Notes: generated by a model not told the origin, from the letters alone. Shown: positions 10,224 to 29,000, counted from the first letter of the stretch. The stretch is DNA of 64,000 nucleotides from a bacterium (GCA_022709425.1 JAKLIW010000003.1:102293-166292), one strand, 5' to 3'. Made by a program: numbers and translations.

Positions 10224-10493
10224 ATGAGTGAGCACAAAGAGTTCAGACCGTTCGTTACGCGTCGTTATCTTGCCGCCGTCTATGAGCGCATCCCCGTTCC
10301 GGCGGAACTGACCACCGAGGAAGAGATGGCCGCCTTTGCGCGAGGGGCGACCCTCGGCCGCTTCAAATGTGTTCTGGCGCCGGGTCCCGGGCGGGCGATT
10401 TGGTTCAATGAAAAGGGCGAGATCACCGGGCGCGACGAACATGACGCCCAACTGCCGCGTGCAAAGCCCGATGTGGGGAGACTGATATTTTAG
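10224..10493 (+). CDS. Hypothetical protein (89 aa)
   Basis: Clean ORF that follows a promoter-like AT-rich stretch. No motif was recognised. Confidence 0.4.
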   Translation: MSEHKEFRPFVTRRYLAAVYERIPVPAELTTEEEMAAFARGATLGRFKCVLAPGPGRAIWFNEKGEITGRDEHDAQLPRAKPDVGRLIF

Positions 10494-10572
10494 CAGTCCA
10501 TATAAGGAAAATGGATTTCGCCGGCGGGCTTAGTTATACTGACCGGTCTCGAACACCGGGGGAGGAAAACAC

Positions 10573-13647: not shown

Positions 13648-14574
13648 ATGTGGTGTTCAGAGGAGGGCTCTGAAATGTCAAGAAACTTAAGAAAAGAGCG
13701 GGCATGGTTGTTAACGGTGGCTCGGACTGTTGCCGTCAGACTCAAACAGTATAGCGATGGAACAAAAATACGTATAAGAAAGCCCACCCGTGTAACAGAA
13801 TCAAACACCGATGGTTGGTACGCTATCATTGGCGATATGGGGAAGAATCAACCGCGGCTTGAAATATGGCTCGATAGGTTTTCAGGGTATCCTGAGCGTA
13901 AACTATATGCTTGCTTTCGATCAGCAGAGAAAGAGCCGTTGATGAACCTCACCAAGCATGTCTCGCGGAACCTATGGCCGGTCCGTGTAATTACCATGAA
14001 AGATACCAACGGTGAAGAAAATGATTGTATTCTTACCGACCGTCTCAAGCGCGCTGAATTCAATGTCCCCATCCTCGAAAAATATGAAGAAGAGTGCGTA
14101 TACTACTTTGGCTTCTATGATCCAACTCGAAAATCTGAGGACAAAATAAACTCATATTTCTGTGATCGAGCCGTGGCTTTTTTCGAGGATGTGGCTCGTG
14201 CTCAGCCTAAGGCAACAGAGCAGGACGAGCAGCGAGAGGTTTATCCTCAACTGGAAAATCGACAACAAGTGGCATCGCATATCAGGCGCGAAAGAAGTCG
14301 CTACCTGTCCACAGAAAGGAAAATCCTTGACGATTACCAATGCCAGGTATGCGGTATGCGATTCGAGGAAGTTTACGGTGAGGCACTGGGGGCAAGATAT
14401 GCCGAAGCGCATCATTTGGTGCCACTGGGCAAATTGGAGGGTGCCGTCAAAACAAAAATCGAAGACCTGCGCACTGTTTGTGCTAACTGTCATCGAATGC
14501 TACACCGCATGGATGGTAAGCGAGATGACATTGCAAAGCTTAAAGCAACCCTTGATAAACATCGGAAGAAATAG
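13648..14574 (+). CDS. HNH endonuclease-domain protein with an unknown N-terminal domain
   Basis: C-terminal CQVCGMRFEE...AEAHHLVPLGKLEGAVKTKIEDLRTVCANCHRMLH is a canonical HNH (C-x2-C ... HH ... C-x2-C-H). Confidence 0.8.
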   Translation: MWCSEEGSEMSRNLRKERAWLLTVARTVAVRLKQYSDGTKIRIRKPTRVTESNTDGWYAIIGDMGKNQPRLEIWLDRFSGYPERKLYACFRSAEKEPLMNLTKHVSRNLWPVRVITMKDTNGEENDCILTDRLKRAEFNVPILEKYEEECVYYFGFYDPTRKSEDKINSYFCDRAVAFFEDVARAQPKATEQDEQREVYPQLENRQQVASHIRRERSRYLSTERKILDDYQCQVCGMRFEEVYGEALGARYAEAHHLVPLGKLEGAVKTKIEDLRTVCANCHRMLHRMDGKRDDIAKLKATLDKHRKK

Positions 14575-14685: not shown

Positions 14686-16752
14686 ATGGTAAAAGAGCAG
14701 CATCAACCAGAGACCAGAGAAAAAAGCACGAATAGGAAAAAGAGTCTATCCGCTCTTAATACTATTCCAGCAGGGTACACCCTGGATTATATTTCCAGTA
14801 AACCAATCAAAGAGACTGCCAAGGAACAAGTTCGTCAGCGGGTGGTGCGTGCCCTGATTCACGAATATGGTTTTTCTCCAGAAGATATGGAGTTGGGTTT
14901 TTCCATTGGCGGTCGCAAGAAAGTTGATGTGGCCATTTTTCACCATGGCAAAGAACACACACTCGAAAATCTCGGCCGTGCCGTGATTTGCCGCCAGGAG
15001 CCAAATATTGGCAAGAACGCTGCCCGGATCCGGGACTTTGAACAGGCCGCAAATGACCTCGAAGAGATCGAGACTATTATGAGAGAGGTCGATGCGGTTC
15101 AGTATGGCCTGTGGACCAACGGTCTGGAATTCTTTTTTATCGAGAAAGAGCGGCAGCGCTTCGAAACCAAGTGCAACCCCATCGGTGACTGGCCGATGGC
15201 CGAAGAGTCAGTCGGTACCAAGGAGGTTATCTCCGATGCCCATACTCGCGTCGCCGACACAGAAATGCTCAAGATCACCTTCCGGCGTTGCCACAACTTC
15301 ATCCACGGCAACGAAGGCATGCCCAAGGACGCCGCATTCTGGCAGTTCCTTTATCTGATCTTCTGCAAAATGCATGACGAAAACCTGCGCGCCAAGCAGC
15401 GTCAGGCTTGGCAGTGCCGCTTCTGGGCTGGTCCCAAGGAGCAGTTCGAGGCCCAAGGCCGCAAGGCAATCCGCGTACGCATCGAGGATCTCTTCACCGA
15501 GGTCAAGAAGCAGTACAAGAACATTTTCCGAGGCAATGAGGAGATAGCCCTCTCCGACCGGGCACTGGCCTTTATCGTCTCTGAACTAGCCAAATACGAT
15601 TTCACCCGCACAGATGTCGATGCCAAGGGCGTGGCCTATCAGGAATTGGTGGGCGTCAACTTGCGCGGCGACCGTGGTCAGTATTTCACCCCCCGGGGCG
15701 TCGTGAAACTGGTAATTGAAATGCTCGATCCCCAGGAAAACGAAACTTTGCTGGACCCTGCCTGTGGCACCGGCGGTTTCCTGGTAGCCACATTGGGCCA
15801 TATGCTGAAGAAATTCCGCATAGAACAAAACACTCAGGTTGGGAAGGAGAGCACGACCGATTTTTTGAACGTTCACGAGCGGTTGAAAGAGTTTGCCGCT
15901 ACCAATGTGTTCGGGGCCGACTTTGACCCGTTTCTGATCCGAGCCGCGCAGATGAACATGGTTCTGGCAGGTGATGGTCGTGGGCATCTTTACAACATCA
16001 ATTCTCTAGAATTTCCACTAGGGCACCTAGCTGATTTGCCCTCTGCCAAGAAGGACCTCCCCTTTGGCTCTGTTGATCTCATTGCTACTAATCCACCGTT
16101 CGGTTCAGATATTCCAATTACCGATAGACACATCTTGGAGCAATATGAATTAGCTCACGAATGGAAGTCTGATGGAGAGGGTGGTTTTCGCAACACAGGC
16201 AGATTGCAGAGTAGCATGGCCCCTGAGATACTTTTTATTGAACGCTGCATTAAATGGATCAAGCCCGGTAAGGGTCGGATGGGCATTGTCCTGCCTGACG
16301 GGGTTCTCGGCAACCCAGCAGCGGAATACATCCGTTGGTGGATTATGCGCGAAACCCAAGTACTTGCCTCCGTTGATTTGCCGGTAGAATCCTTTATCGC
16401 CGAGGCCAATGTTAACATCCTCACCAGCCTGTTGTTCCTGCGCCGCAAGAGTGAAGAAGAAAAACGTACCGAGGCCATGGGCGCCATTGAAGAATATCCA
16501 GTCTTCATGGCCGTGGCCGACAAGGTTGGCTTCGACCGTCGCGGCAACAAACTCTACAAGCGCACTCCTGACGGCGAAGAAATCGTCGAAGCCAAGCAGC
16601 ATGTTGAGCGTATCCGCATCGGCGGACGCTTTGTGGAACGTACCCTGACTCGCAGTGAAAAGATTGAGGATAACGATCTGCCGGTTATCGCTGAAAAATA
16701 CCGAGAATTTATTAGGGAGCAAAAAGATGGGCGAAGAAAACGACATCATTGA
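14686..16752 (+). CDS. N6-adenine DNA methyltransferase (gamma-class, HsdM-like) fused to an N-terminal HSDR_N-type PD-(D/E)xK-like domain whose catalytic motif is degenerate
   Basis: Motif I LDPACGTGGFLV. Motif IV NPPFG. The N-terminus shows the HSDR_N pattern (RALIHEYGF...VDVAIF...AVICRQEP...GLWTNGLEFFF), but the canonical IE.K is replaced by ICRQ. Confidence 0.85.
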   Translation: MVKEQHQPETREKSTNRKKSLSALNTIPAGYTLDYISSKPIKETAKEQVRQRVVRALIHEYGFSPEDMELGFSIGGRKKVDVAIFHHGKEHTLENLGRAVICRQEPNIGKNAARIRDFEQAANDLEEIETIMREVDAVQYGLWTNGLEFFFIEKERQRFETKCNPIGDWPMAEESVGTKEVISDAHTRVADTEMLKITFRRCHNFIHGNEGMPKDAAFWQFLYLIFCKMHDENLRAKQRQAWQCRFWAGPKEQFEAQGRKAIRVRIEDLFTEVKKQYKNIFRGNEEIALSDRALAFIVSELAKYDFTRTDVDAKGVAYQELVGVNLRGDRGQYFTPRGVVKLVIEMLDPQENETLLDPACGTGGFLVATLGHMLKKFRIEQNTQVGKESTTDFLNVHERLKEFAATNVFGADFDPFLIRAAQMNMVLAGDGRGHLYNINSLEFPLGHLADLPSAKKDLPFGSVDLIATNPPFGSDIPITDRHILEQYELAHEWKSDGEGGFRNTGRLQSSMAPEILFIERCIKWIKPGKGRMGIVLPDGVLGNPAAEYIRWWIMRETQVLASVDLPVESFIAEANVNILTSLLFLRRKSEEEKRTEAMGAIEEYPVFMAVADKVGFDRRGNKLYKRTPDGEEIVEAKQHVERIRIGGRFVERTLTRSEKIEDNDLPVIAEKYREFIREQKDGRRKRHH

Positions 16753-18772
16753 AACCCTAGAGGAAGAACTCCTCGAAAAAGAGGATGTTGACGATGAAAG
16801 CGGTCCGGAGAAGTTCTTTATTGACATTCTGACCGGCAACAAAGAAAGCTCCTCGGCCAAGAAACTGCTAGTGCAGAAGGTCCTGCGCCAGCTCATCGAG
16901 AGTTACGGATTTGACCGAAATGATATTGAGGTTGATTACAAACATCGCATCAGGGGCGGCAAGCCGGCGAAAATTGATATTGTTATTTTTCGCCCCGATG
17001 CCGAACACACCAACGACAACCTGCAGCGAATCATCATCTGTAAGAATCAGAAGAAGCACGATAAGCTCCGCTCCGTTACCGAGGCCGACGCCGACCTGCG
17101 TCAGCTCAAGGAGCTGCTCGAGCTGATCCCCGGCACGACCCTGGGTATGTGGACCAATGGACACGAGGAATTCCTGTTCCAGGTCGAGCGCACCCGTTTC
17201 GAGGTCCGAACCAAACCTCTAGGCGTTTGGCCCATACCCGGAGAGGCAACAGTCGACCTTGAGCGCACAGGAGGAGTCATTCAGGTAAGCGCTGATGCGG
17301 AAGGCCTCGAAGATGCTCTTTCCCGTTGCTTCCTCTACCTTTCCAGCAATCAAAACATTGGCTTGGGTGACAGGGCTGGTTTTCAGCAGCTTGCTTTAAT
17401 TCTATTTTCGAAGATCTATGACGAAACGAAGCCTGCTGGTGAGAGACTGTTTTGGATCAAAGGGGAAGAGCCTTTTACACCAGAAGGTCAAGCGGCCATT
17501 CAACAGAGGATCGTTTCTTGTATAGAGGGGGCAATTGCATGGAAACCCAACCTCCTTGAACAAGGCTGGACTCTGAACCTAAGACCAAGCCAAACGGCTC
17601 GCGTGGTCATGGAGCTGGCTCGTTACTCTTTGAGCGAAACACTTCCTCGTTACCGAACCGGAGCTTTCAGATCAGTTGCTCGGTATGTAATGGACGGCAA
17701 AGATGGCCGCTATCCTACGCCACTCAATGTGGCCGAAATGGCGGTGGAGATGCTCGACCCGCAACCCGGTGAACGCATCATGGACTGCTCCAGCGGTACC
17801 GGCACTTTCTTGGCCATGGCCGCTGCGCACATCTTCAAGAAGAAACTGGCCGCCAGTGGCGCCACGCCTGAAGAGGCCACCAACAAACAGATCCGTCAGG
17901 CGCAAAACGAAACCGCCACCTGGGCGGCAAGCAATGCCCTGGGCTGTGACATTGATCCCTTTCTGGCCGTCGCCAGCCGCATGAATCTGCTGTTTACCAC
18001 CGGCAATCCCGGCCGAGTGTTCCGCATAGATGCCCGGACCTTCCCTGATGGAGATCAAGAGGGCATTGAAGTAGCTCGGCAATGCATGCCCCTCGGTAGC
18101 ATGGATGTGGTTTTGCTTAATCCATGGTTCTCCACCAAAAACACGGTGACCGATTCATTCATCCTAGAACGCTATGGCCTGGGCAATAACTGGGAGCGCG
18201 ATGAGGAAGGTGGATTCCGCAATACGGGCAATCTGAACACCGGTGGCGTACCACCCGAGGTTCTTTTTATCGAACGTGCCCTGCAGTGGGTGAAACCGGG
18301 CACCGGTCGTATCGCTATTTTATTGCCGGACGGGATCTTGGGTAACCCCGGAGATGAATACGTACGCTGGTGGATTCTGCGTCACTGCGAGGTGTTGGCC
18401 AGCGTCGACTTGCCCGTTGAACCCTTCAAGGTCACCGTCAAGGAGTATGGCCTGACGCCAGCTTTGCCTAGCCTACTGGTGCTGCGCCGTCGCAGCCAGG
18501 AAGAGCTGATCAACACAGAGTACCCGGAATACAAGGTCTTCATGGCCGTGGTGGATCGGGCCGGTGTGGATGCCCGAGGTAATCTGCTTTTCCAGCGAGC
18601 CCCCGATGGTGAAGAACTGGTTTTCGATGAGGAAGTGATCGAGCGGGTTCGTGAAGGTGGCGAAGTGAAAATCCGCCGCACCACGCGCCGCAACCGTCGC
18701 ATTCATGACGAACTGCCGCTGGTGGCAGAGAAATACAAGGAATTCCGCGCAACCGGCGAGGTGATGTTATGA
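16727..18772 (+). CDS. Paralogous HSDR_N-fused N6A-methyltransferase-like protein with an atypical motif IV (NPWF) and a degenerate nuclease motif (ICKN)
   Basis: Motif I MDCSSGTGTFLA. Motif IV reads NPWFSTKN instead of NPPF/Y. HSDR_N-like N-terminus (LRQLIESYGF...IDIVIF...RIIICKNQ...GMWTNGHEEFLF). Start set at the Met with an AGGGAG RBS; it overlaps the upstream gene. Confidence 0.8.
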   Translation: MGEENDIIETLEEELLEKEDVDDESGPEKFFIDILTGNKESSSAKKLLVQKVLRQLIESYGFDRNDIEVDYKHRIRGGKPAKIDIVIFRPDAEHTNDNLQRIIICKNQKKHDKLRSVTEADADLRQLKELLELIPGTTLGMWTNGHEEFLFQVERTRFEVRTKPLGVWPIPGEATVDLERTGGVIQVSADAEGLEDALSRCFLYLSSNQNIGLGDRAGFQQLALILFSKIYDETKPAGERLFWIKGEEPFTPEGQAAIQQRIVSCIEGAIAWKPNLLEQGWTLNLRPSQTARVVMELARYSLSETLPRYRTGAFRSVARYVMDGKDGRYPTPLNVAEMAVEMLDPQPGERIMDCSSGTGTFLAMAAAHIFKKKLAASGATPEEATNKQIRQAQNETATWAASNALGCDIDPFLAVASRMNLLFTTGNPGRVFRIDARTFPDGDQEGIEVARQCMPLGSMDVVLLNPWFSTKNTVTDSFILERYGLGNNWERDEEGGFRNTGNLNTGGVPPEVLFIERALQWVKPGTGRIAILLPDGILGNPGDEYVRWWILRHCEVLASVDLPVEPFKVTVKEYGLTPALPSLLVLRRRSQEELINTEYPEYKVFMAVVDRAGVDARGNLLFQRAPDGEELVFDEEVIERVREGGEVKIRRTTRRNRRIHDELPLVAEKYKEFRATGEVML

Positions 18773-20181
18773 GTAGAAAATTTCAATGCAAAGCGATACC
18801 AAGCACTTGGCTTGAGCACAATGGTCGCCGCCTTGATTGTGGTCCCTATATGTCCGGGGCTATAGAAGCCCGCGAACTTCTAAAAAGGCACGAAACAGAG
18901 GCTCTCCAATCTCTAACGGCGGGGTATAACGGAGGAATTTATAACGGGCCACAATTCGTTAGGAACTACGTTGAAGATCCAGCTTTCGGAGTCCCTTTTT
19001 TAACGACTTCAACAATGCAGCAAAGCGATACGAGTGGCCTTCCTATGATTAGTCGAAAAGACGCACATTCATCCAAGTTGCGCTACTTAAAAGTTAATGA
19101 GGGAATGACGCTGATCACATGCTCAGGAAGCATAGGGAAAATGGCCTATGCAAGAAAGGACATGGAAAAAGCGTGGTCAAACCAAGACATCATGAAGGTT
19201 GTTGCAGATCGAGCCAAAATCCTCCCTGGATATCTCTATGCCTACCTTTCTAGTCGTTTTGGTGTTCCGATGGTAGTCTCAGGCACTTACGGGGCAATCA
19301 TCCAGCATATTGAGCCGCATCACATTTCAGACCTTCCTGTTCCACGTCTCAGCGAAATTGAGAATCAAGCACATGACCTGATTCAAGGAGCAGCGAACCT
19401 GAGGGTTGAGGCTGCCGAAATAATTGCGCAGATCAGCGCAGAGGTCGAGAGAAGATTCGATTTGTGGGATGAGTCATTATCTGACAAGGCGAGAATAGCA
19501 AGAAACGGTTTTTTAACAACGTCTACTGCTCTTGCAGAGTCGGGCCGCTTTGAAGCCACTTACCATGACGCGATCGCTGCAGCAATCGCTGACAGGGTTC
19601 AATCTCAACCAAATACCCGAATAGACATTGTATGTAAAGTTAAGAAGCCAGGTATGTTCAAAAGGATCATGGTTGATGGCCCCGAACACGGCTATGGCTT
19701 TGTCCCTGGTTCTGAGTTATTTACATTGGCACCAAAGCCCGTGTACTGGGTCTCGCCGAGAACTCCGAATATCGAAGATTGTGTGATGTCTCCGTATTGG
19801 ATTCTCATCCAAGCGTTTGGGCAGCTTGGCGGATTGATTGGCCGATGTATTATGACTACTCCAATGCTGGAGGGTTGTGCCGCCACTGATCTTCAGATTC
19901 AACTCAGATTCGACAATAAGTTAGACGCTGGTTATGTGTTCGCGATTCTTTACAGTCGACCTGGTTATAAACTAATTACTAGAACTCCCATCGGTGGATC
20001 AATTCCGCACATTCATCCGAAAGACATTGAGTCACTTTGTATCCCTTGGCCAGAAGCAGATGTAAGACATGCTATTGGTGAAAGGATTATTGAGGCTTGG
20101 GATAAGCGTGAAGAAGCTGTTCGATTAGAGGATGAAGCCCGCTCCCTAGTCGAACGCACCATCGAGGAGGGAGGTCACTAA
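18769..20181 (+). CDS. HsdS-like specificity subunit with two target-recognition domains
   Basis: 470 aa. Two repeats of the TRD-end conserved block (GAIIQHIEPHHISDLPVPRLSEIENQAHDLIQ and GGSIPHIHPKDIESLCIPWPEADVRHAIGERIIEAW), the latter coiled-coil-like. Lower GC than the flanks. ATGA overlap with the upstream MTase. Confidence 0.7.
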   Translation: MSRKFQCKAIPSTWLEHNGRRLDCGPYMSGAIEARELLKRHETEALQSLTAGYNGGIYNGPQFVRNYVEDPAFGVPFLTTSTMQQSDTSGLPMISRKDAHSSKLRYLKVNEGMTLITCSGSIGKMAYARKDMEKAWSNQDIMKVVADRAKILPGYLYAYLSSRFGVPMVVSGTYGAIIQHIEPHHISDLPVPRLSEIENQAHDLIQGAANLRVEAAEIIAQISAEVERRFDLWDESLSDKARIARNGFLTTSTALAESGRFEATYHDAIAAAIADRVQSQPNTRIDIVCKVKKPGMFKRIMVDGPEHGYGFVPGSELFTLAPKPVYWVSPRTPNIEDCVMSPYWILIQAFGQLGGLIGRCIMTTPMLEGCAATDLQIQLRFDNKLDAGYVFAILYSRPGYKLITRTPIGGSIPHIHPKDIESLCIPWPEADVRHAIGERIIEAWDKREEAVRLEDEARSLVERTIEEGGH

Positions 20182-23100
20182 TGGCGAAGGTCATACCCAT
20201 CGGGCAACCCGCGAACGAATCTGAACGCCAGGCCATTGGTTTCCTTCGGGACCATTTGCCCGATGGATGGCTGATCTTCCACAACTTCGAGATGCGCCAG
20301 GGAGAGGAAGTGTTCGAAATTGACATTGCCATCCTCGCGCCTCACGCGGTGTACCTAGTGGATGTCAAGGGGACGCGGGGCAACATCGATGTGTATGGCT
20401 CCAAGTGGTACCCCGAAGGGCGGCAGCCTTTTCATTCGCCACTCGCTAAGTTGCGCAGCCACGCCAAGACCATGGCCACCATCATCCGCGAGAGCAATAC
20501 CGGCTTGATTGAGTTGCGCAAGGCCCATGTGCATGCTGCCGTGCTGCTCACCGCCGATGACGCTGTCGTGTTCGACCAGGCAGGCATAGACAGCCCAGAT
20601 GTGACCGACTTCAAACATTGCCTGAAATACTTCCGTGACCAAAGCCGCATCCCCGACAACCGTCTGGATAACATCACCCGCTTCCACTCCCAGATTGCCA
20701 AAGCGATTACCGGCAAAGCAAAGCCCAAGAGCGCTGCCCTGGTGTTCCGCGACTGGCAGGTTGAAGAGAAGCTCGGCGGCACCGACCGTTACACCGAATA
20801 TCGTGCCAAGCACAACCTGCTGGGCAAGAGCGGCGGCATGGCCCGCCTGCGCGTCTACCAAGCCGACCCCTATCAGGATGAGACCGCTCGCAAGGAAGAG
20901 TTCAAGAAAATCAGTAACGCATATCGTGCTGTCGCACATATGCCGACCCACGCCAACGTGCTGGCGGTGAAAGATCTCTTCAAGAATGAGGACGAGGATA
21001 AGATCGTACTGGTAACCGAGGACTTGCCCGGACAAGCTCTGCGCCTGCATATCAACAAGGCCTCCCTAGCGCTGACCTTCGATCAAAAACTACAAGTGAT
21101 GCGCGATGTATTGTCGGCGCTGGACCACGCGCATCGGCATGAGGTGATACACCGCAATCTCACCCCGGACGCCATTCTGGTTACCAAGGGTGGGCAAACA
21201 AGAGTTGTCGATTTTGATTATGCTCGTATTGGAAACAATCAAACACTTACTATTGCGCCCCTTATTATTGAGGATTTGGCAAAAAAAGAGTTTGAGAAAT
21301 ACCAAGCTCCAGAATGCGTGAGGTCTCCTGAGAAGGCTAGTATTGCATCAGATATCTATTCTTCAGGAGTTGTTTTTTATGAGCTACTAACTGGCGAACT
21401 ACCTTTTGAAAGTGTCGACCAGATGATAGAGGCCGCCGGCAAGTTCCCGGTGAACCCTTCAGAGCATAAGCCGGACCTGCCCAAAGGGATTGACGAGTGG
21501 ATACAGAAGTTCTGCGAGTTCGACCCCGAGGAACGGCACACCAACGCGGCCATTGCCCGCAAGGCCCTGGATGATCTGATTCTGCCCGAGGCCAAGAACG
21601 ACTCTGCTCCGGATGTTGGCGGCCCGGCCGCGGTTGTGCCTCAGCTCCCGGATGACTTGATGAACCTGCCGCAGAATTTCATACTGGCAGATCGCTTCCG
21701 CATTCAGAAAAAGCTGGGCAGTGGCGGCTTTGGGGTTGTCTACAAGGTATTTGATTCGCTAGGCGATGTGGTGCGGGTCATCAAACTGGTAACCAAAGAC
21801 CGCAACAGCGTATACGAACGACTACGCCGCGAATATAAAACCTTGATTAATCTGCCAGACCATCCGCGCGTAGCAAAGGTGATCTGGGCTGATCGCATGA
21901 ACGATACCCCTCAAACGCCCTACATAGTCTTTGAGTATCGGGAAGGTTTAGATGTTTCCGATCTGATCGATGCTAAAGCACTATCGGCGGAGGATGCCGC
22001 AAATATCGTTCGCGAGGCTGCTGAAGGATTGGCTCATCTCCACAAGCATGGTGTTTATCACCAGGATATCAAGCCGTCTAATCTGTTGTGGACTGACAAT
22101 GGTGTTTGCATCATCGATTTTAATATCGCAGTTTCCGAGAATGAAGAGCATCAAGGAGGCGGTGGTACGCGCCGCTATCTGCCGCCAGATTACGATTACT
22201 CCTCCAGGCCGGACACTTCTGATTGGATAGATCGCGACCTCTATGCCTTAGGTATTTCATTCTACGAGTGTCTGACCGGAACATATCCTTTCGACAGCCA
22301 CACACCACCGATCAAGGTGCAACCTAAGGACCCCAAGCAGTTCAAGGGTTGTGCCGACCTCAGTTCAACGCTTATAAATGTGTTGGTGAAGATGATTGCG
22401 CCGGAACGCAAGAATCGATTCGCCTCGGCGGAAGAGTTTTTGACCGCCCTGGCCGAGGTCAAGCGTCTGCGCTCGGTACTGACCACCGGAGAGGTTGGCG
22501 CCGGACACAAGGTCTTGTCCAAGCTAGGTTTCGAGCCGATTAAGCCCAACACCAATCCCTTTGTCACTCACCTGCTGACTCTCTACAGCCAGAGCCAGGT
22601 GTCTAACGCGGGCACCCGCGGTCTCGACGAAGTTGGCAAGGCCACCTACGTGCCGACCTATCTGGACGAAAAACTCAAGCCCGCGCTGCTCAAGGGAGAG
22701 TTCCGCCTGGTCATCATCAGCGGTAACGCCGGTGACGGTAAGACGGCTTTTATTCAGCAGTTCGAGGCTTTTGCCGAGAGCAAAGGCGCACAGATGCAGC
22801 GTGGCGCGAATGGGGCTGTTTTTCAGCTTAAGGGGTATACCTACCAGAGCAACTACGACGGTAGCCAGGATGAAGGCGACGAGCGCAACGACGCCGTGTT
22901 GCAGAAGTTCTTTGCCCCCTTCGCGGGCAAGGACGATTTCGGATGGCCCCAGAATCAGACCCGCCTGATCGCCATCAATGAAGGACGATTGGTCGATTTC
23001 TTTCTGGAACATGAAGAGGAGTTCCCTCTGCTCACCAAGCAGCTCCAGCAGGGGTTGGCCGGAGCCGCTCCGGAAGGGGGTATCGCAGTCATCAACCTCA

Positions 23101-24335
23101 ACCTGCGCTCGGTGGTTGCCGAACCCGAGGGAGGTCCGCCTTCGATTCTGGAGCGCCTGATCGCCCGCATGTCACAACAGGAATACTGGCAGGCCTGCGA
23201 GAAGTGTGATCTCAAGGGCAAGTGCTACGCCTATCACAACGCCCGGACCTTCCAGGATCCAGTTGCCGGTCCCAGGGTGATCGAGCGCCTAAAGATTCTT
23301 TATACCATTACCCACCTGCGCGGCCGCTTGCACATCACCATGCGCGATCTGCGTTCGGCGCTGGCATTCATGTTGGTGGGCACGCATGATTGCGACGCTA
23401 TTCACCAGCTCTATCAGAACGGCGGCGAGGAGACCCAGAATCGCATCCTTAACGGTTTCTATTTCAACTCATGGCTTGGCGGGGTAGAAGGCTCCTGTGA
23501 TCGGCTGATTGCCTTGCTGCGCGAGATCGATGTTGCCGAAGTCAGCAACCCCGAGCTTGATAGAAAATTGGGATTCCTAGCCCCCATACACCACAAATCG
23601 TCAAGGTATAATTTCGATGAACGAGCAAATTATGACGAGGATATTCTTAATACCTTGTTCCGCAATCTGCCTCGCGATTACTCGTCGAAGAACCGTGGTC
23701 GACTGATCGCCAAACACCGGATTTACCTATCTCACATGCGTCGTCGCCATTTCTTTGAACGACGCGACATTGGTTGGAAGAAGATGCTGCCTTACGGGAG
23801 TATTGATCCCTTCTTGGATGCTATTAAACAGCCTGGAGTGAAAAGTACCGATGAGGTTACCGCCATTCTACGAGCTATCAACCGCGGCGAAAGTCTGAGC
23901 GATCCGGCGCGATTGGGTAACCAGTTGGCGCTGCGTGTTCGCCAGGTGGACAAGGGCACAATCCGCAGTTACCGCCTCTTTGACGGCGACCATTTCACGC
24001 TCCGCACCGAGCAGAAAATGGCGACACATCCTTTCCTCGAGTGCCTGTCTCAGGTGTTGACGCTGCTTTATGATTCCGGCGACGGGCATAAGGCCAGCCT
24101 GCGCATCAATCTCGATATCTATGAAATGCTGATGCGGCTCAACAACGGTTACCGCCCCAGCATTGAGGAGCAGGAAGGCTTTTACCTGAGCCTAGCGGTA
24201 TTCAAGAATGTTCTATCCGCCGCTCCCTATCAGGAGGTCCTTCTCACCGAAAGCGGCTTTGAATTTTATCAGATCCGGCGTGACGAAAAGGGGATCTTAC
24301 ATTTTGGAAAAGTAAGCACGAGGACTGGAACATGA
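20181..24335 (+). CDS. Multidomain NERD nuclease + pseudokinase + Ser/Thr protein kinase + P-loop NTPase protein (1384 aa), PglW-like
   Basis: N-terminal NERD (GEEVFEIDIAILAPHAVYLVDVKGTRGNI). Kinase-like domain 1 has a degenerate catalytic loop HRNLTPDA and DFD. Kinase domain 2 has GSGGFGVVYKV, HQDIKPSNLLW and DFN. Downstream Walker A VIISGNAGDGKT. Confidence 0.85.
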   Translation: MAKVIPIGQPANESERQAIGFLRDHLPDGWLIFHNFEMRQGEEVFEIDIAILAPHAVYLVDVKGTRGNIDVYGSKWYPEGRQPFHSPLAKLRSHAKTMATIIRESNTGLIELRKAHVHAAVLLTADDAVVFDQAGIDSPDVTDFKHCLKYFRDQSRIPDNRLDNITRFHSQIAKAITGKAKPKSAALVFRDWQVEEKLGGTDRYTEYRAKHNLLGKSGGMARLRVYQADPYQDETARKEEFKKISNAYRAVAHMPTHANVLAVKDLFKNEDEDKIVLVTEDLPGQALRLHINKASLALTFDQKLQVMRDVLSALDHAHRHEVIHRNLTPDAILVTKGGQTRVVDFDYARIGNNQTLTIAPLIIEDLAKKEFEKYQAPECVRSPEKASIASDIYSSGVVFYELLTGELPFESVDQMIEAAGKFPVNPSEHKPDLPKGIDEWIQKFCEFDPEERHTNAAIARKALDDLILPEAKNDSAPDVGGPAAVVPQLPDDLMNLPQNFILADRFRIQKKLGSGGFGVVYKVFDSLGDVVRVIKLVTKDRNSVYERLRREYKTLINLPDHPRVAKVIWADRMNDTPQTPYIVFEYREGLDVSDLIDAKALSAEDAANIVREAAEGLAHLHKHGVYHQDIKPSNLLWTDNGVCIIDFNIAVSENEEHQGGGGTRRYLPPDYDYSSRPDTSDWIDRDLYALGISFYECLTGTYPFDSHTPPIKVQPKDPKQFKGCADLSSTLINVLVKMIAPERKNRFASAEEFLTALAEVKRLRSVLTTGEVGAGHKVLSKLGFEPIKPNTNPFVTHLLTLYSQSQVSNAGTRGLDEVGKATYVPTYLDEKLKPALLKGEFRLVIISGNAGDGKTAFIQQFEAFAESKGAQMQRGANGAVFQLKGYTYQSNYDGSQDEGDERNDAVLQKFFAPFAGKDDFGWPQNQTRLIAINEGRLVDFFLEHEEEFPLLTKQLQQGLAGAAPEGGIAVINLNLRSVVAEPEGGPPSILERLIARMSQQEYWQACEKCDLKGKCYAYHNARTFQDPVAGPRVIERLKILYTITHLRGRLHITMRDLRSALAFMLVGTHDCDAIHQLYQNGGEETQNRILNGFYFNSWLGGVEGSCDRLIALLREIDVAEVSNPELDRKLGFLAPIHHKSSRYNFDERANYDEDILNTLFRNLPRDYSSKNRGRLIAKHRIYLSHMRRRHFFERRDIGWKKMLPYGSIDPFLDAIKQPGVKSTDEVTAILRAINRGESLSDPARLGNQLALRVRQVDKGTIRSYRLFDGDHFTLRTEQKMATHPFLECLSQVLTLLYDSGDGHKASLRINLDIYEMLMRLNNGYRPSIEEQEGFYLSLAVFKNVLSAAPYQEVLLTESGFEFYQIRRDEKGILHFGKVSTRTGT

Positions 24336-26008
24336 GCATTAGGGGCAAAGATAAGGAGTTCCGAACTCCCAAAATTACCTATATCGACTTCAAGCACATC
24401 GAGATGGATCGAGTGCTGACCCTGCTCTTCCCCCGACTGAAATATGACGGGTATACGAGCAGGTTCAGCAGAGCGAGAAAACTGGAAGTCGAGGACTTCC
24501 TGACCGAGTTCATGGAGCATGATGAGTGGTTTGACGGATTTGATAAACATAAGGAAATAATAAAGAAATGGCTTGAGACAGATCTGCTTGATCTTGTGAA
24601 TAGGGGAAGGGCAAATCAAGCAGTGGCGGCTCCTCGACCGCTTCATGGGAATACCTATAAGTTTCGCAATGTAAAACACACGAGGGATTATGGGGCGGCA
24701 GAACACCTATATTGGATGCTTTATTATGCCCGTAGAGGTAGATGTGAGGCGGCTAGAAGCTCCTTAAAAAAATTCTTCTTTACAGGATACGATTTTCACA
24801 CTGACAAATATGATGCTGGTCTCAATGTAGATGTCGAAACACAAGCGATTTTGAGACTCGACCTCCAAGTAACTCAGGATACAAAAAGCAACGATGAGCC
24901 GGAGAGATATCAGCCTCTATGTGTTGGCCAAGCCGACATAATGGCCGACGACATTCTACGACTTCTGGCCTATGAGTCTTATGTCCCACGTTCGGTGTTA
25001 GTGGATTACCTCAAAACTCTAATGGCATTCCATCTGGCACTTTACCATCTCAAGTTGTTACAGATGCTACCAAGGCTGGTGAAACAGCGATCCGAAAACG
25101 ATCTTTGCACCACCAAGGAATGCCCGATCAATCCGAGCCTCGACAATGTGTTGGAATGCTGTCCTTACCGCTTAGCGCTGGTCGTAGACATGGGCAACAT
25201 CAACAATCCTCATATTGCCGAGCTGGCCCGCAAGTCAACGGAGCGGTTCTATCGCCAGATCCCGGCATTCGTGCAATCTAATTTTATCGTTAAAAAGCTT
25301 GATGAGATGGCGGAGAATATGCGTCTTCAAGGGAAACTGGCATTGCCTTCGAGTGGTCACTTTTCAGCTGGTGATTTAATTGGTCTGCTTAAGTCTGAAC
25401 ATGATTCAAATCGGGAGGCCTATTTTACGGCTCGCCTTTCAAAATTGATCGAAGAGGCAGGAACAAGCGGGGAGGAAATTGACCCGGAGATCCGAGATGT
25501 TACTTCGATGAACCTGAATGCGTTTGAGAAATTCATCGAAATTCTGATGGCGTATCGAGGCAAGTATCACCGCCAGTACATCACCGAGTGTCTAGATTCC
25601 CTTCTGCTGAAGAACAAAGAGAACGGTCTGCTGGCCCAACCCCGGACCAAGGGAAGTCCTCGGCGGTTTGTGTTGGGGAGCAAGTTACTTGAAGTGCTGC
25701 TTCAGGTGGCCGTGCTCACCCAAGACGGCGGTCGCTTCGTGACCCGCGAGGTTCGCATTGAGGAGTTGCTGGCTTTTTTGAGAAATCGTTACGGCCTTTA
25801 CATTGACCGACTGCCAGAAGGAGCCCATGCCAACAGCAGCATCCTCGACAGGCGCGCTTTGCGCCTCAACCTTGAAGCCTTTAAGCGTCGACTTCGTGAA
25901 ATCGGATTTTACGAGGATCTGTCGGATGCCTATGTGACCCAGAAGGTATCGCCCCGCTATGCGATTGAGAGAAATGACGGAACAGATAAAAACGGGAGGC
26001 ACGCATGA
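24332..26008 (+). CDS. Hypothetical protein (558 aa), translationally coupled within the defence-like operon
   Basis: 4-nt overlaps at both ends. No motif was recognised. The 5' half has lower GC. Confidence 0.6.
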   Translation: MSIRGKDKEFRTPKITYIDFKHIEMDRVLTLLFPRLKYDGYTSRFSRARKLEVEDFLTEFMEHDEWFDGFDKHKEIIKKWLETDLLDLVNRGRANQAVAAPRPLHGNTYKFRNVKHTRDYGAAEHLYWMLYYARRGRCEAARSSLKKFFFTGYDFHTDKYDAGLNVDVETQAILRLDLQVTQDTKSNDEPERYQPLCVGQADIMADDILRLLAYESYVPRSVLVDYLKTLMAFHLALYHLKLLQMLPRLVKQRSENDLCTTKECPINPSLDNVLECCPYRLALVVDMGNINNPHIAELARKSTERFYRQIPAFVQSNFIVKKLDEMAENMRLQGKLALPSSGHFSAGDLIGLLKSEHDSNREAYFTARLSKLIEEAGTSGEEIDPEIRDVTSMNLNAFEKFIEILMAYRGKYHRQYITECLDSLLLKNKENGLLAQPRTKGSPRRFVLGSKLLEVLLQVAVLTQDGGRFVTREVRIEELLAFLRNRYGLYIDRLPEGAHANSSILDRRALRLNLEAFKRRLREIGFYEDLSDAYVTQKVSPRYAIERNDGTDKNGRHA

Positions 26009-29000
26009 GCAATGCGTTCATCAAGCTTTCCTATGATAAATTGAACGCAGCGGTCGCTTGTCTGCTGTGCCCGCGTATCGAAACAATCCTGGGTGACCGT
26101 GGCCCAGGCCACTGCATGCGGATCACCGATCTCGATGACGATGTAATGGAGTCTGTCTGCAAGGAACTGCGCCGAACCCGACCCGACGGAAACATCTTTA
26201 TCCTTGGTAGCCATGATCAGGAAAGTCTGCCTTTCCGAGTCACTTCCACCAAACTGGTGGAATTGCGCAACCCGGACTCGAACGGCGAGTTGCGTCAGCC
26301 TTTGATGGTCTTTATACCCACCTCGCTTCGCACCAGCGCCGAGGATTCTTTCGGCGTGGCGACCTTCGAGGAGCTGGCCTTCACCGGTATCTATGAGAAC
26401 CTTATCGACTCACTACTAGATCGGATCCCGACAACACTGGTCGGCCCTGTTCGCGACCTTTTTGGTTTCCTCACAGAGGAGGAATGGCTGTTTGCCGATG
26501 ATGTTTCTCGTGTGCGGTACCTGCTCACTGCGCTCGAAAACGGGATTGATGGAGAAACCCTCGGGGCCAGCCTGTATGAATTGACTTTGATCCCGGACTT
26601 CAAGCTTTTTGCCGATCCTGGCATGCTCAGGGGCAAGATTCGCCGTAACCTCGACAGCGTCCGTAGTTTGATGATTTCTCACAAGTCGGTTCGTGGACGC
26701 ATTGCCGGTTTGGGCCTCAGCGACAAGACCTTGGAATCGCGCCTATTCGCCTACTTTGAAAAACACGATGTCCATGAGCCGGAATCCTGGACCTTGCCCA
26801 TCGCGACTGATAAGAGCTGGTGGAGCATTTCTTTCGACAAATGGACATTCCGGGGAGAGCTTTACCTAGACAAGGTTCTGCTGACGGTGCTGGGAACCGA
26901 CTTGCCGGTTGTTCAGAAGGAAGAGACCGATGACCAGCTTTCCGGCCTGATTGGACAACAGGTTCTGATCCCGAATGATCGCCGCAAAATGAATGTGGAG
27001 TTCGAGGTCAATCCTCACCCGGGCAAGGTCAGCGGTCTTGACCATTTTACGGTTCAGATCGTTTCGCAGAATGATGGCCCGGTAGGAAAATCAAAAAAGG
27101 TTAAAGCGTGGACGCCGAATCGCCTTCAATGTACGACTAATCTTGCAAAGCTCAATAAGGTTGAATTCGAGGAAGGATGGCATTTCATTCGTATCTTGCC
27201 TTGGTCGGCAGACGGCGATCAAATTCCGCTGGAAGCGGGTTCTTCCTCCGAAGGTGCTAAACACTCCTATGAAAGCGAACCATTCTATGTCCTGCCCGGT
27301 GGCAACATTGAGGAGGAACCGCCGCAAAGAGCCATACCCATTGAACAGAGCCTAGAGCATGCACGTTTCCGGTTGCAACTGACGGCATTGGGCGATGAGC
27401 GCGATCCGGAAGACATCGCTATCAGTAGTGTCGTTTGGGCCGAAGGCAACAGTTCGAAGAAGGTCTCCCGACATGAAACCTTGCTTGCGAAATTTGGTCG
27501 CGAGGGCGCTTTTCAGATACCGCTTTCGCGCATGCTCAAAACCATTGAGCAACGCATCTTGGCTGAGCCCAAGCATCCATCAGGCTGGCGAATGCAGATC
27601 AATCTGGATACCCCTGAGTTGCCATCTGAGGTTGGTCTCACGCTGCCTTCTTCTGCCGCAATGGCCTCTTTTTTGGCCGCTCGCGAAGAGTTTTTTGCAG
27701 CGGTACGCAAAGACACTGCCGAGTTGATTATGCAAGGGCTTTCGTTCCGAGACTCGGAAAAGGAATGCCTTGCCTATGCGGAAGGGTACCTTGATCTAGT
27801 AAGAAATCTTATCCGCCAAGCCGAGACGACTTCTGGTGCCGACCGCCAACAACACCTACAATCGCTCAGGAATGTGTTGGCCGTTGATTCCATTCATGTC
27901 GTCTTAACTGATTTCCGCGGAAGACACCGGGAGGCTGTTTTGGTCTCTCCAACCCATCCGCTCCGTGCTTTGTGGCTAAGCAGCTGGGTCACCCTGGGTA
28001 AGGATTGGATCGAGAAGATCAAATCAGGCGGAAAGGATTACATTCCTCATGTTCGTTCTGCGCTCCTAGAACGCCTTGCGCCATCTGCCTATCCGGTCGG
28101 TATTCCAGTCGAGGATGGCCGAATCTTCACTCCGGTCGACAACCTGAATGCGTTCTGGGCACTTTACGCCCCAACAACCGAGGAAAATTCCAGAGGCCTG
28201 ATGGCGGAAATCTGTTCAGCGCTTGGCTTGGCCGAGCCCTCTGCGGCGGGAACAGATGTTTGCGGAAAGGTCATTGCGGACAAGATCGAGCGCTATCTCT
28301 CCCAGCATCCGTATGTGCGAGAGTTATCACTAAACATCTTCAACCCGGGCGCCGCATCAGTAATTGCGGATGCCCTGCTCTCGCTCCAGCAAAAGCGTGA
28401 GCATGCCGATTTGCGCTATGACATCCGGCTCTTCACATCGGACCCCGATTCGCCAGTTTTAGGTGAGGCACTTGAATCGATGGTCCGTCCCGGGGCAACA
28501 GTAAACGAGGCCGCTGACGCGTTTGCGATTTCGACGGGCAGCCATCTGTTCTCCAAGCTGAACTTGGCTAAGCACGCGCTGAATGAGTTTCGTTCAAATT
28601 CCAAGGAATTCCCGGCACACATCAGCGTTCTTCTGGATGTGTTTCCCGCCGAGGAGATATCCATTACAGAGAAGCCGATGGGCGTGACCCCATTGCATGG
28701 GCTGATACAGGACTTTGACACTGACTTCGTTGATGACGATACGGGTACCTTCTGGAACAAGCGGCCGATTGTCGGACGATCCCTCGCTGCGGATAGCCAC
28801 GCGACATGCTTTGATTTGTTGTCGTCCCTGAGCCGAAACCTCAGTTTCGCTACCTCAGCGATTGCTGCTTCTGGTGCCAGTTTTAAATCTGTGCCCGTCA
28901 TAACCCTTGGCCTCGATGCCGTTCAACGAGAACTAATCTACGAAGTGCACCAGATTAGCGATTGGGTGTTCACCATCGACCGAAATATGGGGATTGAATT

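What the first reader, a model, noticed from the sequence alone, without database searches (positions are those of the whole stretch)
18769..20181. HsdS-like two-TRD specificity subunit with no HsdR helicase-nuclease anywhere in the locus
This is a bona fide-looking S subunit, with two TRDs and conserved coiled-coil ends. It sits downstream of the MTases but is followed by kinase and HerA-like genes instead of hsdR. Its GC is lower than the flanks, as expected for a rapidly evolving, exchangeable specificity module. It would direct a bipartite recognition sequence for the whole system.
Basis: partly seen in the sequence, partly recalled or inferred. Interest (0 to 1): 0.55.

Follow-up and report, generated by a model that had tools for sequence, protein, structure and literature searches.

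The report
MAD5 specificity subunit of MADS defence
The gene is a genuine two-domain DNA-specificity (S) subunit, but it belongs to the already described MADS anti-phage system, where a kinase/DndFGH-like module takes the place of the usual HsdR motor-nuclease, so the finding is correct but not new.

Summary
ORF 18769-20181 (+, 470 aa) is real and is MAD5, the S subunit of the Methylation-Associated Defence System (MADS; Maestri et al. 2024). It scores 494.9 bits against the NCBIfam equivalog model (cut-off 400). Its AlphaFold model matches only two-TRD S subunits in the PDB. It sits in a translationally coupled operon: MAD2a, MAD2b, MAD5, MAD6 (NERD + two kinase domains + SspF/DndF-like C-terminal region), MAD7 (SspG/DndG-like) and MAD8 (DndH/HerA-like). 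No HsdR-like ORF exists in the window.

The GC dip is real: 0.469 against 0.54 in both flanking genes. It recurs in 75/75 genome loci and 60/61 metagenome loci. mad5 is the operon's hypervariable cassette. It is 49% identical to a P. aeruginosa copy whose other proteins are 79-90% identical, and nucleotide identity falls just inside the 5' end of mad5 and recovers at its 3' boundary.

Qualifications:
- Pfam Methylase_S is below threshold.
- TRD1 is much more constrained than TRD2.
- This operon is the variant with a second methyltransferase paralogue (invariant NPWF motif) instead of MAD3/MAD4, and it lacks MAD1.
- RefSeq already annotates the same two-MAD2 gene order (there with mads1) in E. 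coli.

The parts
14686..16752 (+). MAD2a: N6-adenine DNA methyltransferase with an HSDR_N_2-like N-terminal domain, motif I DPACGTG and motif IV NPPF
   Evidence: NCBIfam MADS2 1017.8 bits against a cut-off of 720. Pfam N6_Mtase 2.3e-28 and HSDR_N_2 3e-7. Motifs read. Best PDB relatives are RM.BsaXI (8e-22) and type I HsdM chains.
16727..18772 (+). MAD2b: second methyltransferase paralogue (37% identical to MAD2a) with motif I DCSSGTG and motif IV NPWF. It occupies the slot that holds MAD3+MAD4 in the type system. The likely start is ATG 16727, not GTG 16655.
   Evidence: NCBIfam MADS2 767.8 bits against 720. The start is inferred from the alignment to the P. aeruginosa orthologue. NPWF is invariant in 34/34 orthologues.
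18758..18764 (+). Shine-Dalgarno-like GAGGTGA, 4 nt upstream of the mad5 ATG. The mad5 ATG overlaps the MAD2b stop (ATGA).
   Evidence: Sequence printed.
18769..20181 (+). MAD5: two-TRD specificity (S) subunit, 470 aa. This is the finding.
18769..18855 (+). MAD5 residues 1-29: conserved N-terminal segment. R21-L22-D23-C24-G25-P26 is nearly invariant. The model has low confidence here.
   Evidence: Pairwise identity 0.68 in the MAD5-unbiased sample, with invariant positions listed. pLDDT below 50 for residues 1-10, 14-16 and 19-28.
18856..19353 (+). MAD5 TRD1 (residues 30-195): a constrained target-recognition domain
   Evidence: Mean pairwise identity 0.52, minimum 0.33. Covered by the sub-threshold Pfam Methylase_S hit (74-161) and by PADLOC Specificity_I hits.
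19354..19548 (+). MAD5 central helix (residues 196-229) and linker (230-260)
   Evidence: Helix 196-229 in the AF2 model. Identity 0.36 for the helix and 0.19 for the linker, which is the most variable part.
19549..20055 (+). MAD5 TRD2 (residues 261-429): hypervariable target-recognition domain
   Evidence: Median pairwise identity 0.24. Nucleotide identity to sister operons falls to about 40-50% here. PDB S-subunit profile hits map to this half.
20056..20178 (+). MAD5 C-terminal helix (residues 430-466, continuing to the C-terminus), partner of the central helix
   Evidence: AF2 helix 430-466. Internal repeat with residues 150-231.
20181..24335 (+). MAD6: NERD nuclease-like domain, two protein-kinase domains and an SspF/DndF-like C-terminal region
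   Evidence: NCBIfam MADS6 828 bits. Pfam NERD and Pkinase x2. C-terminal fragment hits SspF at 4.6e-28 and DndF at 2e-7.
24332..26008 (+). MAD7: SspG/DndG-like protein
   Evidence: NCBIfam MADS7 661 bits. PADLOC mad7 3e-123 and SspG 3.4e-9.
26005..31467 (+). MAD8: 1820-aa ATP-binding protein with DndH/SspH-like middle region and HerA/FtsK-like C-terminal ATPase
   Evidence: NCBIfam MADS8 233 bits against 175. PADLOC mad8 5e-40, plus HerA, DndH and SspH hits.

Best explanation
The ORF encodes MAD5, the DNA-specificity subunit of a MADS (Methylation-Associated Defence System) operon.

Shown: it has the HsdS fold, with two target-recognition domains held apart by two long helices. It is translationally coupled to two type-I/IIB-like N6-adenine methyltransferase paralogues upstream (MAD2a, MAD2b) and to MAD6-MAD7-MAD8 downstream.

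Inferred from type I and PacII/BsaXI structures: MAD5 binds one methyltransferase per TRD, here probably a MAD2a-MAD2b heteropair. It thereby defines a bipartite asymmetric site that is m6A-methylated on host DNA.

Inferred from the SMC4386 genetics: the same recognition complex marks unmethylated copies of the site on incoming DNA for restriction. Restriction is carried out not by an HsdR translocase-nuclease but by the SspFGH/DndFGH-like module, made up of MAD6 (NERD + kinases + F-like core), MAD7 (G-like) and MAD8 (H-like, HerA/FtsK ATPase).

mad5 is the exchangeable cassette of the operon. It is replaced or reassorted, especially TRD2, between otherwise near-identical, horizontally spreading operons, and this retargets the whole system.
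For: Family assignment: NCBIfam equivalogs above cut-off for MAD2 (twice), MAD5, MAD6, MAD7 and MAD8, plus PADLOC mad2/5/6/7/8.

Fold: AF2 pLDDT 88.5. Foldseek top 9 hits are S.BsaXI, PacII S, Tte/EcoKI/Mja/Mge HsdS. The profile also hits the same PDB S subunits.

Linkage: MAD5 is followed by MAD6-7-8 in every genome locus whose contig reaches far enough (75 of 80 carry both MAD5 and MAD6). In 60 of 80 MAD7-anchored metagenome loci the contig reaches upstream of MAD6. There the ORF ending at the MAD6 start is a MAD5 homologue every time, 460-508 aa in 58 of the 60 (the other two are truncated ORFs of 181 and 420 aa). Start and stop codons overlap.

Cassette behaviour: MAD5 is 49% identical to the P. 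aeruginosa copy, against 79-90% for the neighbours. In the metagenome sample the means are 41% for MAD5 and 82% for MAD6. Nucleotide identity is 85-96% in the flanks, drops inside mad5 and recovers at 20169. 22 pairs share at least 90% of TRD2 with less than 70% TRD1 identity.

Function of the family: in P. aeruginosa SMC4386, MADS methylates TCAGNNNNTCC (m6A on both strands) and restricts unmethylated phage and plasmid DNA. There, mad5 could not be deleted unless mad2 or mad3 was also deleted (preprint 10.1101/2023.03.30.534895).

F/G/H-like nature of MAD6-8: and the domain analyses in PMC10853773 and PMC12839542.

RefSeq annotates the same mads2-mads2-mads5-mads6-mads7-mads8 order, preceded by mads1, in E. 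coli EC11.
Against: Nothing was measured for this particular locus: no methylome, no defence assay, no complex.

Pfam Methylase_S is below its gathering score. A single-sequence search of the PDB was not significant (E 0.16).

This operon lacks MAD1. It also lacks MAD3/MAD4, which were needed for defence in SMC4386, so the published genetics may not transfer fully to this variant.

MAD2b carries NPWF instead of the canonical NPPF, so it may not methylate. In that case the site could be modified on one strand only.

How MADS restricts is unknown even for the type system (PMC12904381).
Confidence: 0.88

Rival explanations
1. The system is a type IIB-like enzyme, similar to BsaXI. MAD2a/MAD2b would be nuclease-methyltransferase fusions whose N-terminal HSDR_N_2 (PD-(D/E)xK-like) domains cut DNA. 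MAD5 would be their S subunit. MAD6-8 would be accessory or regulatory rather than the restriction machinery.
For: The closest solved relatives of both partners are the two BsaXI subunits: S.BsaXI 8w0p_C is the top Foldseek hit for MAD5 (5e-14), and RM.BsaXI 8w0p_A is the top sequence hit for MAD2a (8e-22) and MAD2b (8.5e-8). Both MAD2 paralogues carry a Pfam HSDR_N_2 domain above threshold.
Against: The alignment to RM.BsaXI covers only the methyltransferase part (query 191-594), not the nuclease domain. By eye, the expected E-x-K position reads C-R-Q in MAD2a and C-K-N in MAD2b (sequences). This is my own unverified alignment. In SMC4386, deleting mad6, mad7 or mad8 abolished defence. MAD6-8 are strictly linked to MAD5 in all loci examined.
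Confidence: 0.08
2. The module is modification-only. MAD2a/MAD2b/MAD5 would form an orphan type I-like methyltransferase used for epigenetic regulation, and it would merely sit next to an unrelated DndFGH-like system.
For: There is no HsdR in the window. DndFGH-like modules are argued to work as stand-alone systems (PMC10853773).
Against: The gene order MAD2-...-MAD5-MAD6-MAD7-MAD8 is conserved across many phyla, with overlapping start and stop codons. In the type system, methylation and restriction are genetically one system with one motif.
Confidence: 0.03
3. The operon is a decaying remnant. Having lost MAD1 and MAD3/MAD4, it would be non-functional and mad5 would drift, which would explain its low GC and divergence.
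For: MAD1 and the divergent HTH regulator found next to most sister operons are absent. MAD3/MAD4 are absent.
Against: All six ORFs are intact and above the equivalog cut-offs. The arrangement with two MAD2 genes and no MAD3/4 recurs in about 30 of 80 genome loci, in nearly all the close metagenome relatives, and in E. coli. The GC dip of mad5 is found in both architectures (75/75 loci). MAD5 keeps the invariant family residues. Deleting mad1 had little effect in SMC4386.
Confidence: 0.03

Closest known systems
MADS (Methylation-Associated Defence System), P. aeruginosa SMC4386, Maestri et al., Cell Host Microbe 2024 (preprint 10.1101/2023.03.30.534895)
   Same: MAD2, MAD5, MAD6, MAD7 and MAD8 homologues occur in the same order and all score above the NCBIfam equivalog cut-offs. 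An S subunit together with an N6-adenine methyltransferase defines a bipartite site, and there is no HsdR.
   Different: The type operon has mad1 (HTH), mad3 (AAA ATPase) and mad4 (DUF4276). Here mad1 is missing, and the mad3-mad4 slot holds a second MAD2 paralogue with an NPWF motif. The motif and activity of this copy are unmeasured.
RefSeq-annotated MADS operons with two mads2 genes, e.g. E. coli EC11 NZ_CP027255.1 and P. aeruginosa GCA_003835165.1
   Same: The core order MAD2-MAD2-MAD5-MAD6-MAD7-MAD8 is identical. The P. aeruginosa proteins are 79-90% identical to the window's, apart from MAD5.
   Different: MAD5 is only 49% identical, so it is a different specificity allele. Those loci keep MAD1 and a divergent HTH regulator, and they sit in integrative or conjugative islands.
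Classical type I R-M (EcoKI HsdS/HsdM/HsdR)
   Same: The S subunit has two TRDs and two long helices. The partner is a gamma-class N6-adenine methyltransferase related to HsdM. A bipartite recognition site is expected.
   Different: There is no HsdR. The Pfam Methylase_S hit is sub-threshold. The family shows an asymmetric conservation pattern, with TRD1 constrained and the helices variable. The methyltransferases carry an extra HSDR_N_2-like N-terminal domain.
Type IIB BsaXI (RM.BsaXI + S.BsaXI, PDB 8w0p) and PacII M1-M2-S (PDB 7vru)
   Same: These are the best structural matches for MAD5 and the best sequence match for MAD2. PacII shows that two different methyltransferases can share one S subunit, which is the model proposed for MAD2a/MAD2b/MAD5.
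   Different: Neither has kinase, G-like or HerA-like partners. BsaXI cuts with its own N-terminal nuclease domain, whereas MADS genetically requires MAD6-8.
SspFGH / DndFGH (DptFGH) restriction modules of phosphorothioate systems
   Same: The MAD6 C-terminal region, MAD7 and MAD8 are homologous to the F, G and H components. NERD plus pseudo-kinase plus kinase fusions to DndF have been described (PMC10853773).
   Different: In MADS the self mark is m6A, written by a type I-like M+S module, and not a phosphorothioate written by DndA-E or SspA-D.

Membership tests
MADS (Maestri et al. MacSyFinder definition; NCBIfam MADS models) | MAD6, MAD7 and MAD8 are present and clustered (mandatory components) | tested here: met
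   NCBIfam scores: MADS6 828.3 (cut-off 460), MADS7 661.0 (410), MADS8 233.0 (175). The genes are contiguous and overlapping. The definition is quoted.
MADS | The MAD5 S subunit matches the family model over its whole length | tested here: met
   NF047740 equivalog: 494.9 bits against a cut-off of 400, residues 6-466 matching profile positions 2-461 of 461.
MADS | A MAD2 N6-adenine methyltransferase lies adjacent | tested here: met
   Two copies, scoring 1017.8 and 767.8 bits against a cut-off of 720. MAD2a has DPACGTG and NPPF.
MADS | MAD1, MAD3 and MAD4 are present (accessory in the published model, but mad3/mad4 were needed for defence in SMC4386) | tested here: not met
   None of the flanking ORFs hits NCBIfam or PADLOC models for these genes. 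tblastn with MAD1 gives a best E of 0.31. The models do detect MAD1, MAD3 and MAD4 in other loci.
MADS | Methylation of a bipartite motif and restriction of unmethylated DNA | not testable with these tools
   This needs methylome sequencing and phage or plasmid assays. It has been shown only for SMC4386.
Type I R-M HsdS | Two TRDs separated by two long helices that form a coiled coil | tested here: met
   AF2 helices at 196-229 and 430-466. Foldseek hits to HsdS structures 5ybb_D, 3okg, 2y7c_A, 1yf2 and 1ydx. Internal repeat E 7e-7.
Type I R-M HsdS | Pfam Methylase_S (PF01420) above the gathering score | tested here: not met
   19.4 bits against 22, one stretch at 74-161 only. Many homologues do carry a precomputed PF01420 hit.
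Type I R-M system | An HsdR subunit (SF2 translocase plus PD-(D/E)xK nuclease) encoded with hsdM/hsdS | tested here: not met
   No ORF of 500 aa or more in the 64-kb window has ResIII, helicase or HsdR domains. None is seen in the related loci either.
Type IIB R-M (BsaXI-like) | A catalytically competent N-terminal nuclease domain fused to the methyltransferase | tested here: inconclusive
   The HSDR_N_2 domain is present in both MAD2 paralogues. The catalytic E-x-K could not be identified by inspection. No HMM alignment was available to settle it.

The most novel reading that the evidence does not exclude
In MADS, MAD5 would be more than a passive specificity factor. It would be the hub of a plug-in architecture. 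A constrained N-terminus and TRD1 would dock the invariant machinery or read a semi-conserved half-site, while TRD2 is freely swapped.

The slot just upstream of mad5 would accept alternative partners: MAD3+MAD4 (OLD-like ATPase plus Toprim), a MAD2b paralogue with an invariant NPWF motif, or even a Fic gene (locus L006).

On this reading, MAD2b is a catalytically altered methyltransferase. That would point to how MADS senses non-self.
Probability: 0.15. Interest if true: 0.55.

Novelty: new member of a known kind. Interest (0 to 1): 0.27.

Why it matters
MADS is a defence system named in 2024 whose restriction mechanism is still unknown, so this instance adds no new kind of system.

The comparative results are of some use to people working on MADS:
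- mad5 is a boundary-to-boundary hypervariable, low-GC cassette inside operons that are otherwise 80-95% identical across phyla.
- Its two TRDs evolve very differently.
- The MAD3/MAD4 pair, essential in the type strain, is replaced by a conserved methyltransferase paralogue in a large, widely transferred clade.

These points indicate which parts determine specificity and which are interchangeable effector or sensor modules.

Tried and rejected
- A single-sequence phmmer search of MAD5 against the PDB gave nothing significant (E 0.16). A 40-sequence profile and a fold search were needed.
I therefore did not rely on it.
- The first evidence that TRD1 is conserved came from samples selected through MAD5 itself. 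Alignment A1 used top full-length hits, and the genome scan used three peptide patterns that all lie in the N-terminal half. I treated this as biased and repeated the analysis on loci anchored on MAD7. The asymmetry held but was weaker (0.52 against 0.31).
- Phase variation was considered and rejected. There are no extra or silent mad5 copies in the window and no homopolymer tracts of 8 nt or more in 12-32 kb.
- I asked whether the upstream Mrr_cat and HNH genes replace MAD3/MAD4 as effectors. They have no homologues in the 80 genome loci, so I treat them as unrelated neighbours.
- I asked whether MAD5 alleles co-vary with architecture (MAD2b against MAD3/4). Within-type and between-type TRD1 identities are alike (0.61, 0.59, 0.57), so there is no evidence for this.
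- Catalytic residues of the HSDR_N_2 domains could not be settled by inspection.
- The published Cell Host Microbe paper is not held. I used the preprint and its supplement instead.
Full report
**1. The observation**

An ATG ORF runs from 18769 to 20181 on the + strand and encodes 470 aa. A GAGGTGA Shine-Dalgarno-like site lies 4 nt upstream of the start. The ATG overlaps the stop of the upstream gene (ATGA), and the TAA overlaps the ATG of the next gene (TAATG), so the gene is translationally coupled on both sides.

The product is an S subunit:
- It scores 494.9 bits (E 2.3e-148) over its whole length against the NCBIfam equivalog [quoted passage not shown], whose cut-off is 400.
- It hits PADLOC mad5 at 1e-31 and more than fifty type I/II Specificity models.
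Methylase_S scores 19.4 bits, below the gathering score of 22, and matches only residues 74-161.

**2. Two TRDs and two helices**

The two halves of the protein align in register: residues 150-231 against 384-466, 29% identity, E 7e-7. An AlphaFold2 model built on 40 homologues has pLDDT 88.5 and pTM 0.87. It shows two globular domains, each followed by a long helix (196-229 and 430-466).

The nine best Foldseek matches in the PDB are all full-length two-TRD S subunits:
- S.BsaXI 8w0p_C, E 5e-14
- PacII S subunit 7vru_C
- T. tengcongensis HsdS 5ybb_D and 3okg
- EcoKI HsdS 2y7c_A
- 1yf2 and 1ydx

These alignments span 440-509 columns. A sequence profile of the family finds the same chains at about 1e-5. 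A single-sequence search did not.

**3. Context and the missing HsdR**

The operon reads as follows.

| Coordinates | Gene | Features |
|---|---|---|
| 14686-16752 | MAD2a | N6-adenine methyltransferase; DPACGTG, NPPF |
| 16727-18772 | MAD2b | 37% identical paralogue; DCSSGTG, NPWF |
| 18769-20181 | MAD5 | S subunit |
| 20181-24335 | MAD6 | NERD, two kinase domains, C-terminal region |
| 24332-26008 | MAD7 | SspG-like |
| 26005-31467 | MAD8 | DndH/SspH/HerA-like |

All six genes are above the NCBIfam equivalog cut-offs. The MAD6 C-terminal region hits SspF at 4.6e-28 and DndF at 2e-7. MAD7 hits SspG, and MAD8 hits DndH, SspH and HerA models.

MAD6-8 therefore form an SspFGH/DndFGH-like module. 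This agrees with published domain analyses of DndF fusions carrying NERD, a pseudo-kinase and a kinase (PMC10853773 and PMC12839542).

Every ORF of 500 aa or more in the 64-kb window was scanned with Pfam. None has helicase, ResIII or HsdR signatures. The "S subunit without HsdR" observation is correct.

**4. What it is**

This arrangement is MADS, described in P. aeruginosa SMC4386 by Maestri et al. (Cell Host Microbe 2024; preprint 10.1101/2023.03.30.534895).
- MADS methylates TCAGNNNNTCC (m6A on both strands) and restricts unmethylated phage and plasmid DNA.
- mad2-4 and mad6-8 are needed for defence.
- mad5 could not be deleted unless mad2 or mad3 was also removed.
- The supplement names Mad5 an R-M specificity subunit, Mad7 DndG/DptG-like and Mad8 HerA-like.
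- The restriction mechanism was still listed as unknown in 2026.

The exact protein of this window is already in NCBI, from a MAG labelled only "bacterium", annotated as "restriction endonuclease subunit S". RefSeq annotates the gene order mads1-mads2-mads2-mads5-mads6-mads7-mads8 in E. coli EC11. That is the window's order, preceded there by mads1.

**5. The exchangeable-module claim**

I compared the window with a P. aeruginosa operon (L001).

| Protein | Identity to L001 |
|---|---|
| MAD2a | 89% |
| MAD2b | 81% |
| MAD5 | 49% |
| MAD6 | 88% |
| MAD7 | 79% |
| MAD8 | 90% |

I then compared the window with six sister operons from different phyla at the nucleotide level.
- Identity is 85-96% in the last 400 nt of MAD2b and in MAD6.
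- It falls inside mad5 to about 50-75% across the TRD1 half and about 40-50% from 19369 to 20168.
- It recovers to 91-94% at 20169 in five of the six comparisons and to 84% in the sixth. That position is the mad5/mad6 junction.

In 61 MAD7-anchored metagenome loci, mean identity to the window is 41% for MAD5 and 82% for MAD6.

**6. GC content**

| Gene | GC | GC3 |
|---|---|---|
| MAD2b | 0.540 | 0.609 |
| mad5 | 0.469 | 0.427 |
| MAD6 | 0.542 | 0.639 |

Both halves of mad5 are equally low. The dip is a property of the family.
- mad5 is below mad6 in 75/75 genome loci, with mean difference -0.064 in GC and -0.175 in GC3.
- It is below mad6 in 60/61 metagenome loci, with mean differences -0.083 and -0.237.
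- This holds in hosts ranging from 34% to 72% GC.

The cause is not settled. Possibilities are frequent replacement from a lower-GC allele pool, AT-biased drift in a fast-evolving gene, or selection for poor codons.

**7. A qualification: the two TRDs are not equivalent**

My first samples were chosen through MAD5 itself, so I repeated the analysis on loci found with a MAD7 profile. In 60 of these 80 loci the contig reaches upstream of MAD6. In every one, the ORF ending at the MAD6 start is a MAD5 homologue. It is 460-508 aa long in 58 loci, and two loci carry truncated ORFs of 181 and 420 aa.

Mean pairwise identities in the 60 sequences aligned for this analysis (the 58 full-length ORFs, the window, and one further sequence I cannot account for):

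| Segment | Mean pairwise identity |
|---|---|
| N-terminal 29 residues | 0.68 |
| TRD1 | 0.52 (minimum 0.33) |
| Central helix | 0.36 |
| Linker | 0.19 |
| TRD2 | 0.31 (median 0.24) |
| C-terminal helix | 0.44 |

This differs from the expectation for classical HsdS families, where the helices are conserved and both TRDs vary (from my own knowledge, not tested here). In MAD5, the N-terminus and TRD1 are the constrained part. The N-terminus includes a nearly invariant RLDCGPY motif that the model leaves disordered.

Reassortment is visible. 22 pairs share at least 90% of TRD2 with less than 70% TRD1 identity, and one pair shows the reverse. Earlier examples are L040/L063 and L014/L019.

There are no silent mad5 copies or homopolymer tracts near the gene that would suggest phase variation.

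**8. The operon variant**

Among the 80 genome loci found through MAD5, about 30 have MAD2a-MAD2b-MAD5, as here. Most of the others have a gap of about 2 kb between MAD2 and MAD5. In the loci I tested (L005, L008, L058), NCBIfam identifies the gap genes as MAD3 (AAA ATPase) and MAD4. L027 has a weak, sub-threshold MAD3 match and no MAD4 hit.

L005 and L008 have MAD3/MAD4 even though their other genes are 73-84% identical to the window's. MAD2b and MAD3+MAD4 are therefore alternative occupants of one slot. L006 has a Fic gene in that slot.

MAD2b keeps NPWF in 34/34 orthologues, and MAD2a keeps NPPF in 73/75. MAD2b is thus a conserved, not decaying, paralogue of uncertain catalytic status.

The window lacks MAD1 and the divergent HTH regulator found next to most sister operons. 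Instead, Mrr_cat-like and HNH genes lie upstream, and these have no counterpart in other MADS loci.

**9. Mechanism, with shown and inferred steps marked**

Shown:
- The fold of MAD5.
- Its family membership.
- Its linkage to the other MADS genes.
- Its cassette behaviour.

Inferred from type I, PacII M1M2S and BsaXI structures: MAD5 binds one methyltransferase per TRD, probably MAD2a plus MAD2b. Its helices set the spacer of a bipartite asymmetric site.

Inferred from the SMC4386 genetics: methylated sites mark self. Unmethylated sites recognised through MAD5 lead to restriction by the F/G/H-like MAD6-8 module, which supplies the ATPase and nuclease functions that HsdR provides in type I systems.

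The main rival is a BsaXI-like enzyme in which the HSDR_N_2 domains of MAD2 do the cutting. I give this about 8%. The nuclease domain does not align to RM.BsaXI, the E-x-K motif is not evident, and mad6-8 are genetically required in the type system.

**10. Verdict**

The feature is an uncharacterised member of an already named and curated system, so interest is low to moderate. The comparative findings may still be useful leads on how MADS works: the cassette boundaries, the universal GC dip, the TRD asymmetry, and the MAD2b versus MAD3/4 alternation.

Noticed in passing
window 16727-18772 (MAD2b); loci L001, L004, L009 and others: The second methyltransferase paralogue has NPWF instead of NPPF in motif IV. 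NPWF is invariant in 34/34 orthologues. MAD2b occupies the same slot that holds MAD3 (AAA ATPase) plus MAD4 in other MADS operons. This includes L005 and L008, whose remaining genes are 73-84% identical to the window's.
   Followed up: partly
L006:8678-9802: In this Desulforhabdus locus, the slot between MAD2 and MAD5 holds a Fic-family protein adenylyltransferase gene (NCBIfam 5.6e-50) rather than MAD2b or MAD3/MAD4.
   Followed up: no
L029:8344-9747 and 10001-11395: Two MAD5-like genes lie in tandem upstream of MAD6 in an Acidobacteriota MAG (41% and 43% identical to the window's MAD5).
   Followed up: no
window 18769-20181; 75 genome loci and 61 metagenome loci: mad5 has lower GC than mad6 in 75/75 genome loci and 60/61 metagenome loci, with GC3 lower by 0.18-0.24 on average, whatever the host GC (34-72%). 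The dip covers both halves of the gene equally. Its cause is unexplained.
   Followed up: partly
window 18829-18846 (MAD5 residues 21-26): A nearly invariant RLDCGP(Y) motif lies in the N-terminal segment, which AlphaFold leaves disordered (pLDDT below 50). It could be a docking motif for another MADS subunit.
   Followed up: no
window 12504-13583 and 13648-14574: A Mrr_cat-like gene (359 aa) and an HNH gene (308 aa; weak type IV restriction enzyme hit) lie directly upstream of MAD2a, where sister operons have MAD1 and an HTH regulator. Their GC is low (0.44-0.47) and they have no homologues in the 80 genome MADS loci. They are probably a separate restriction gene pair.
   Followed up: partly
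window 5392-6342 (-) and 6455-8113 (+), with small ORFs at 8114-8503 and 8516-9103: A WYL/WCX/HTH regulator is divergent from a 552-aa AAA ATPase whose C-terminal half resembles IetA/IteA anti-phage ATPases (PADLOC 2e-23, far below the NCBIfam cut-off). Two unannotated small ORFs follow. This may be another defence gene set in the same island.
   Followed up: no
window 11901-12482: A DUF1643 protein (Pfam 5e-30) lies just upstream of the Mrr_cat-like gene.
   Followed up: no
window 33831-38900 (-) and 32186-33829 (-): A 1689-aa protein with thrombospondin type 3 and Kelch repeats is followed by a 547-aa ORF with no family hit. Both lie on the opposite strand, just downstream of MAD8.
   Followed up: no
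window 40006-41541 (-); GC profile 12-39 kb against 45-64 kb: A Mu-type transposase (rve + Mu-transpos_C_2) sits near the point where GC rises from about 0.45-0.55 (the defence-gene region) to about 0.58-0.64. This suggests that the MADS operon lies in a horizontally acquired island.
   Followed up: no
window 16655-16752: The mechanical ORF list starts MAD2b at GTG 16655, which overlaps MAD2a by 98 nt. Alignment to orthologues places the start at ATG 16727, giving 681 aa and a 26-nt overlap.
   Followed up: yes
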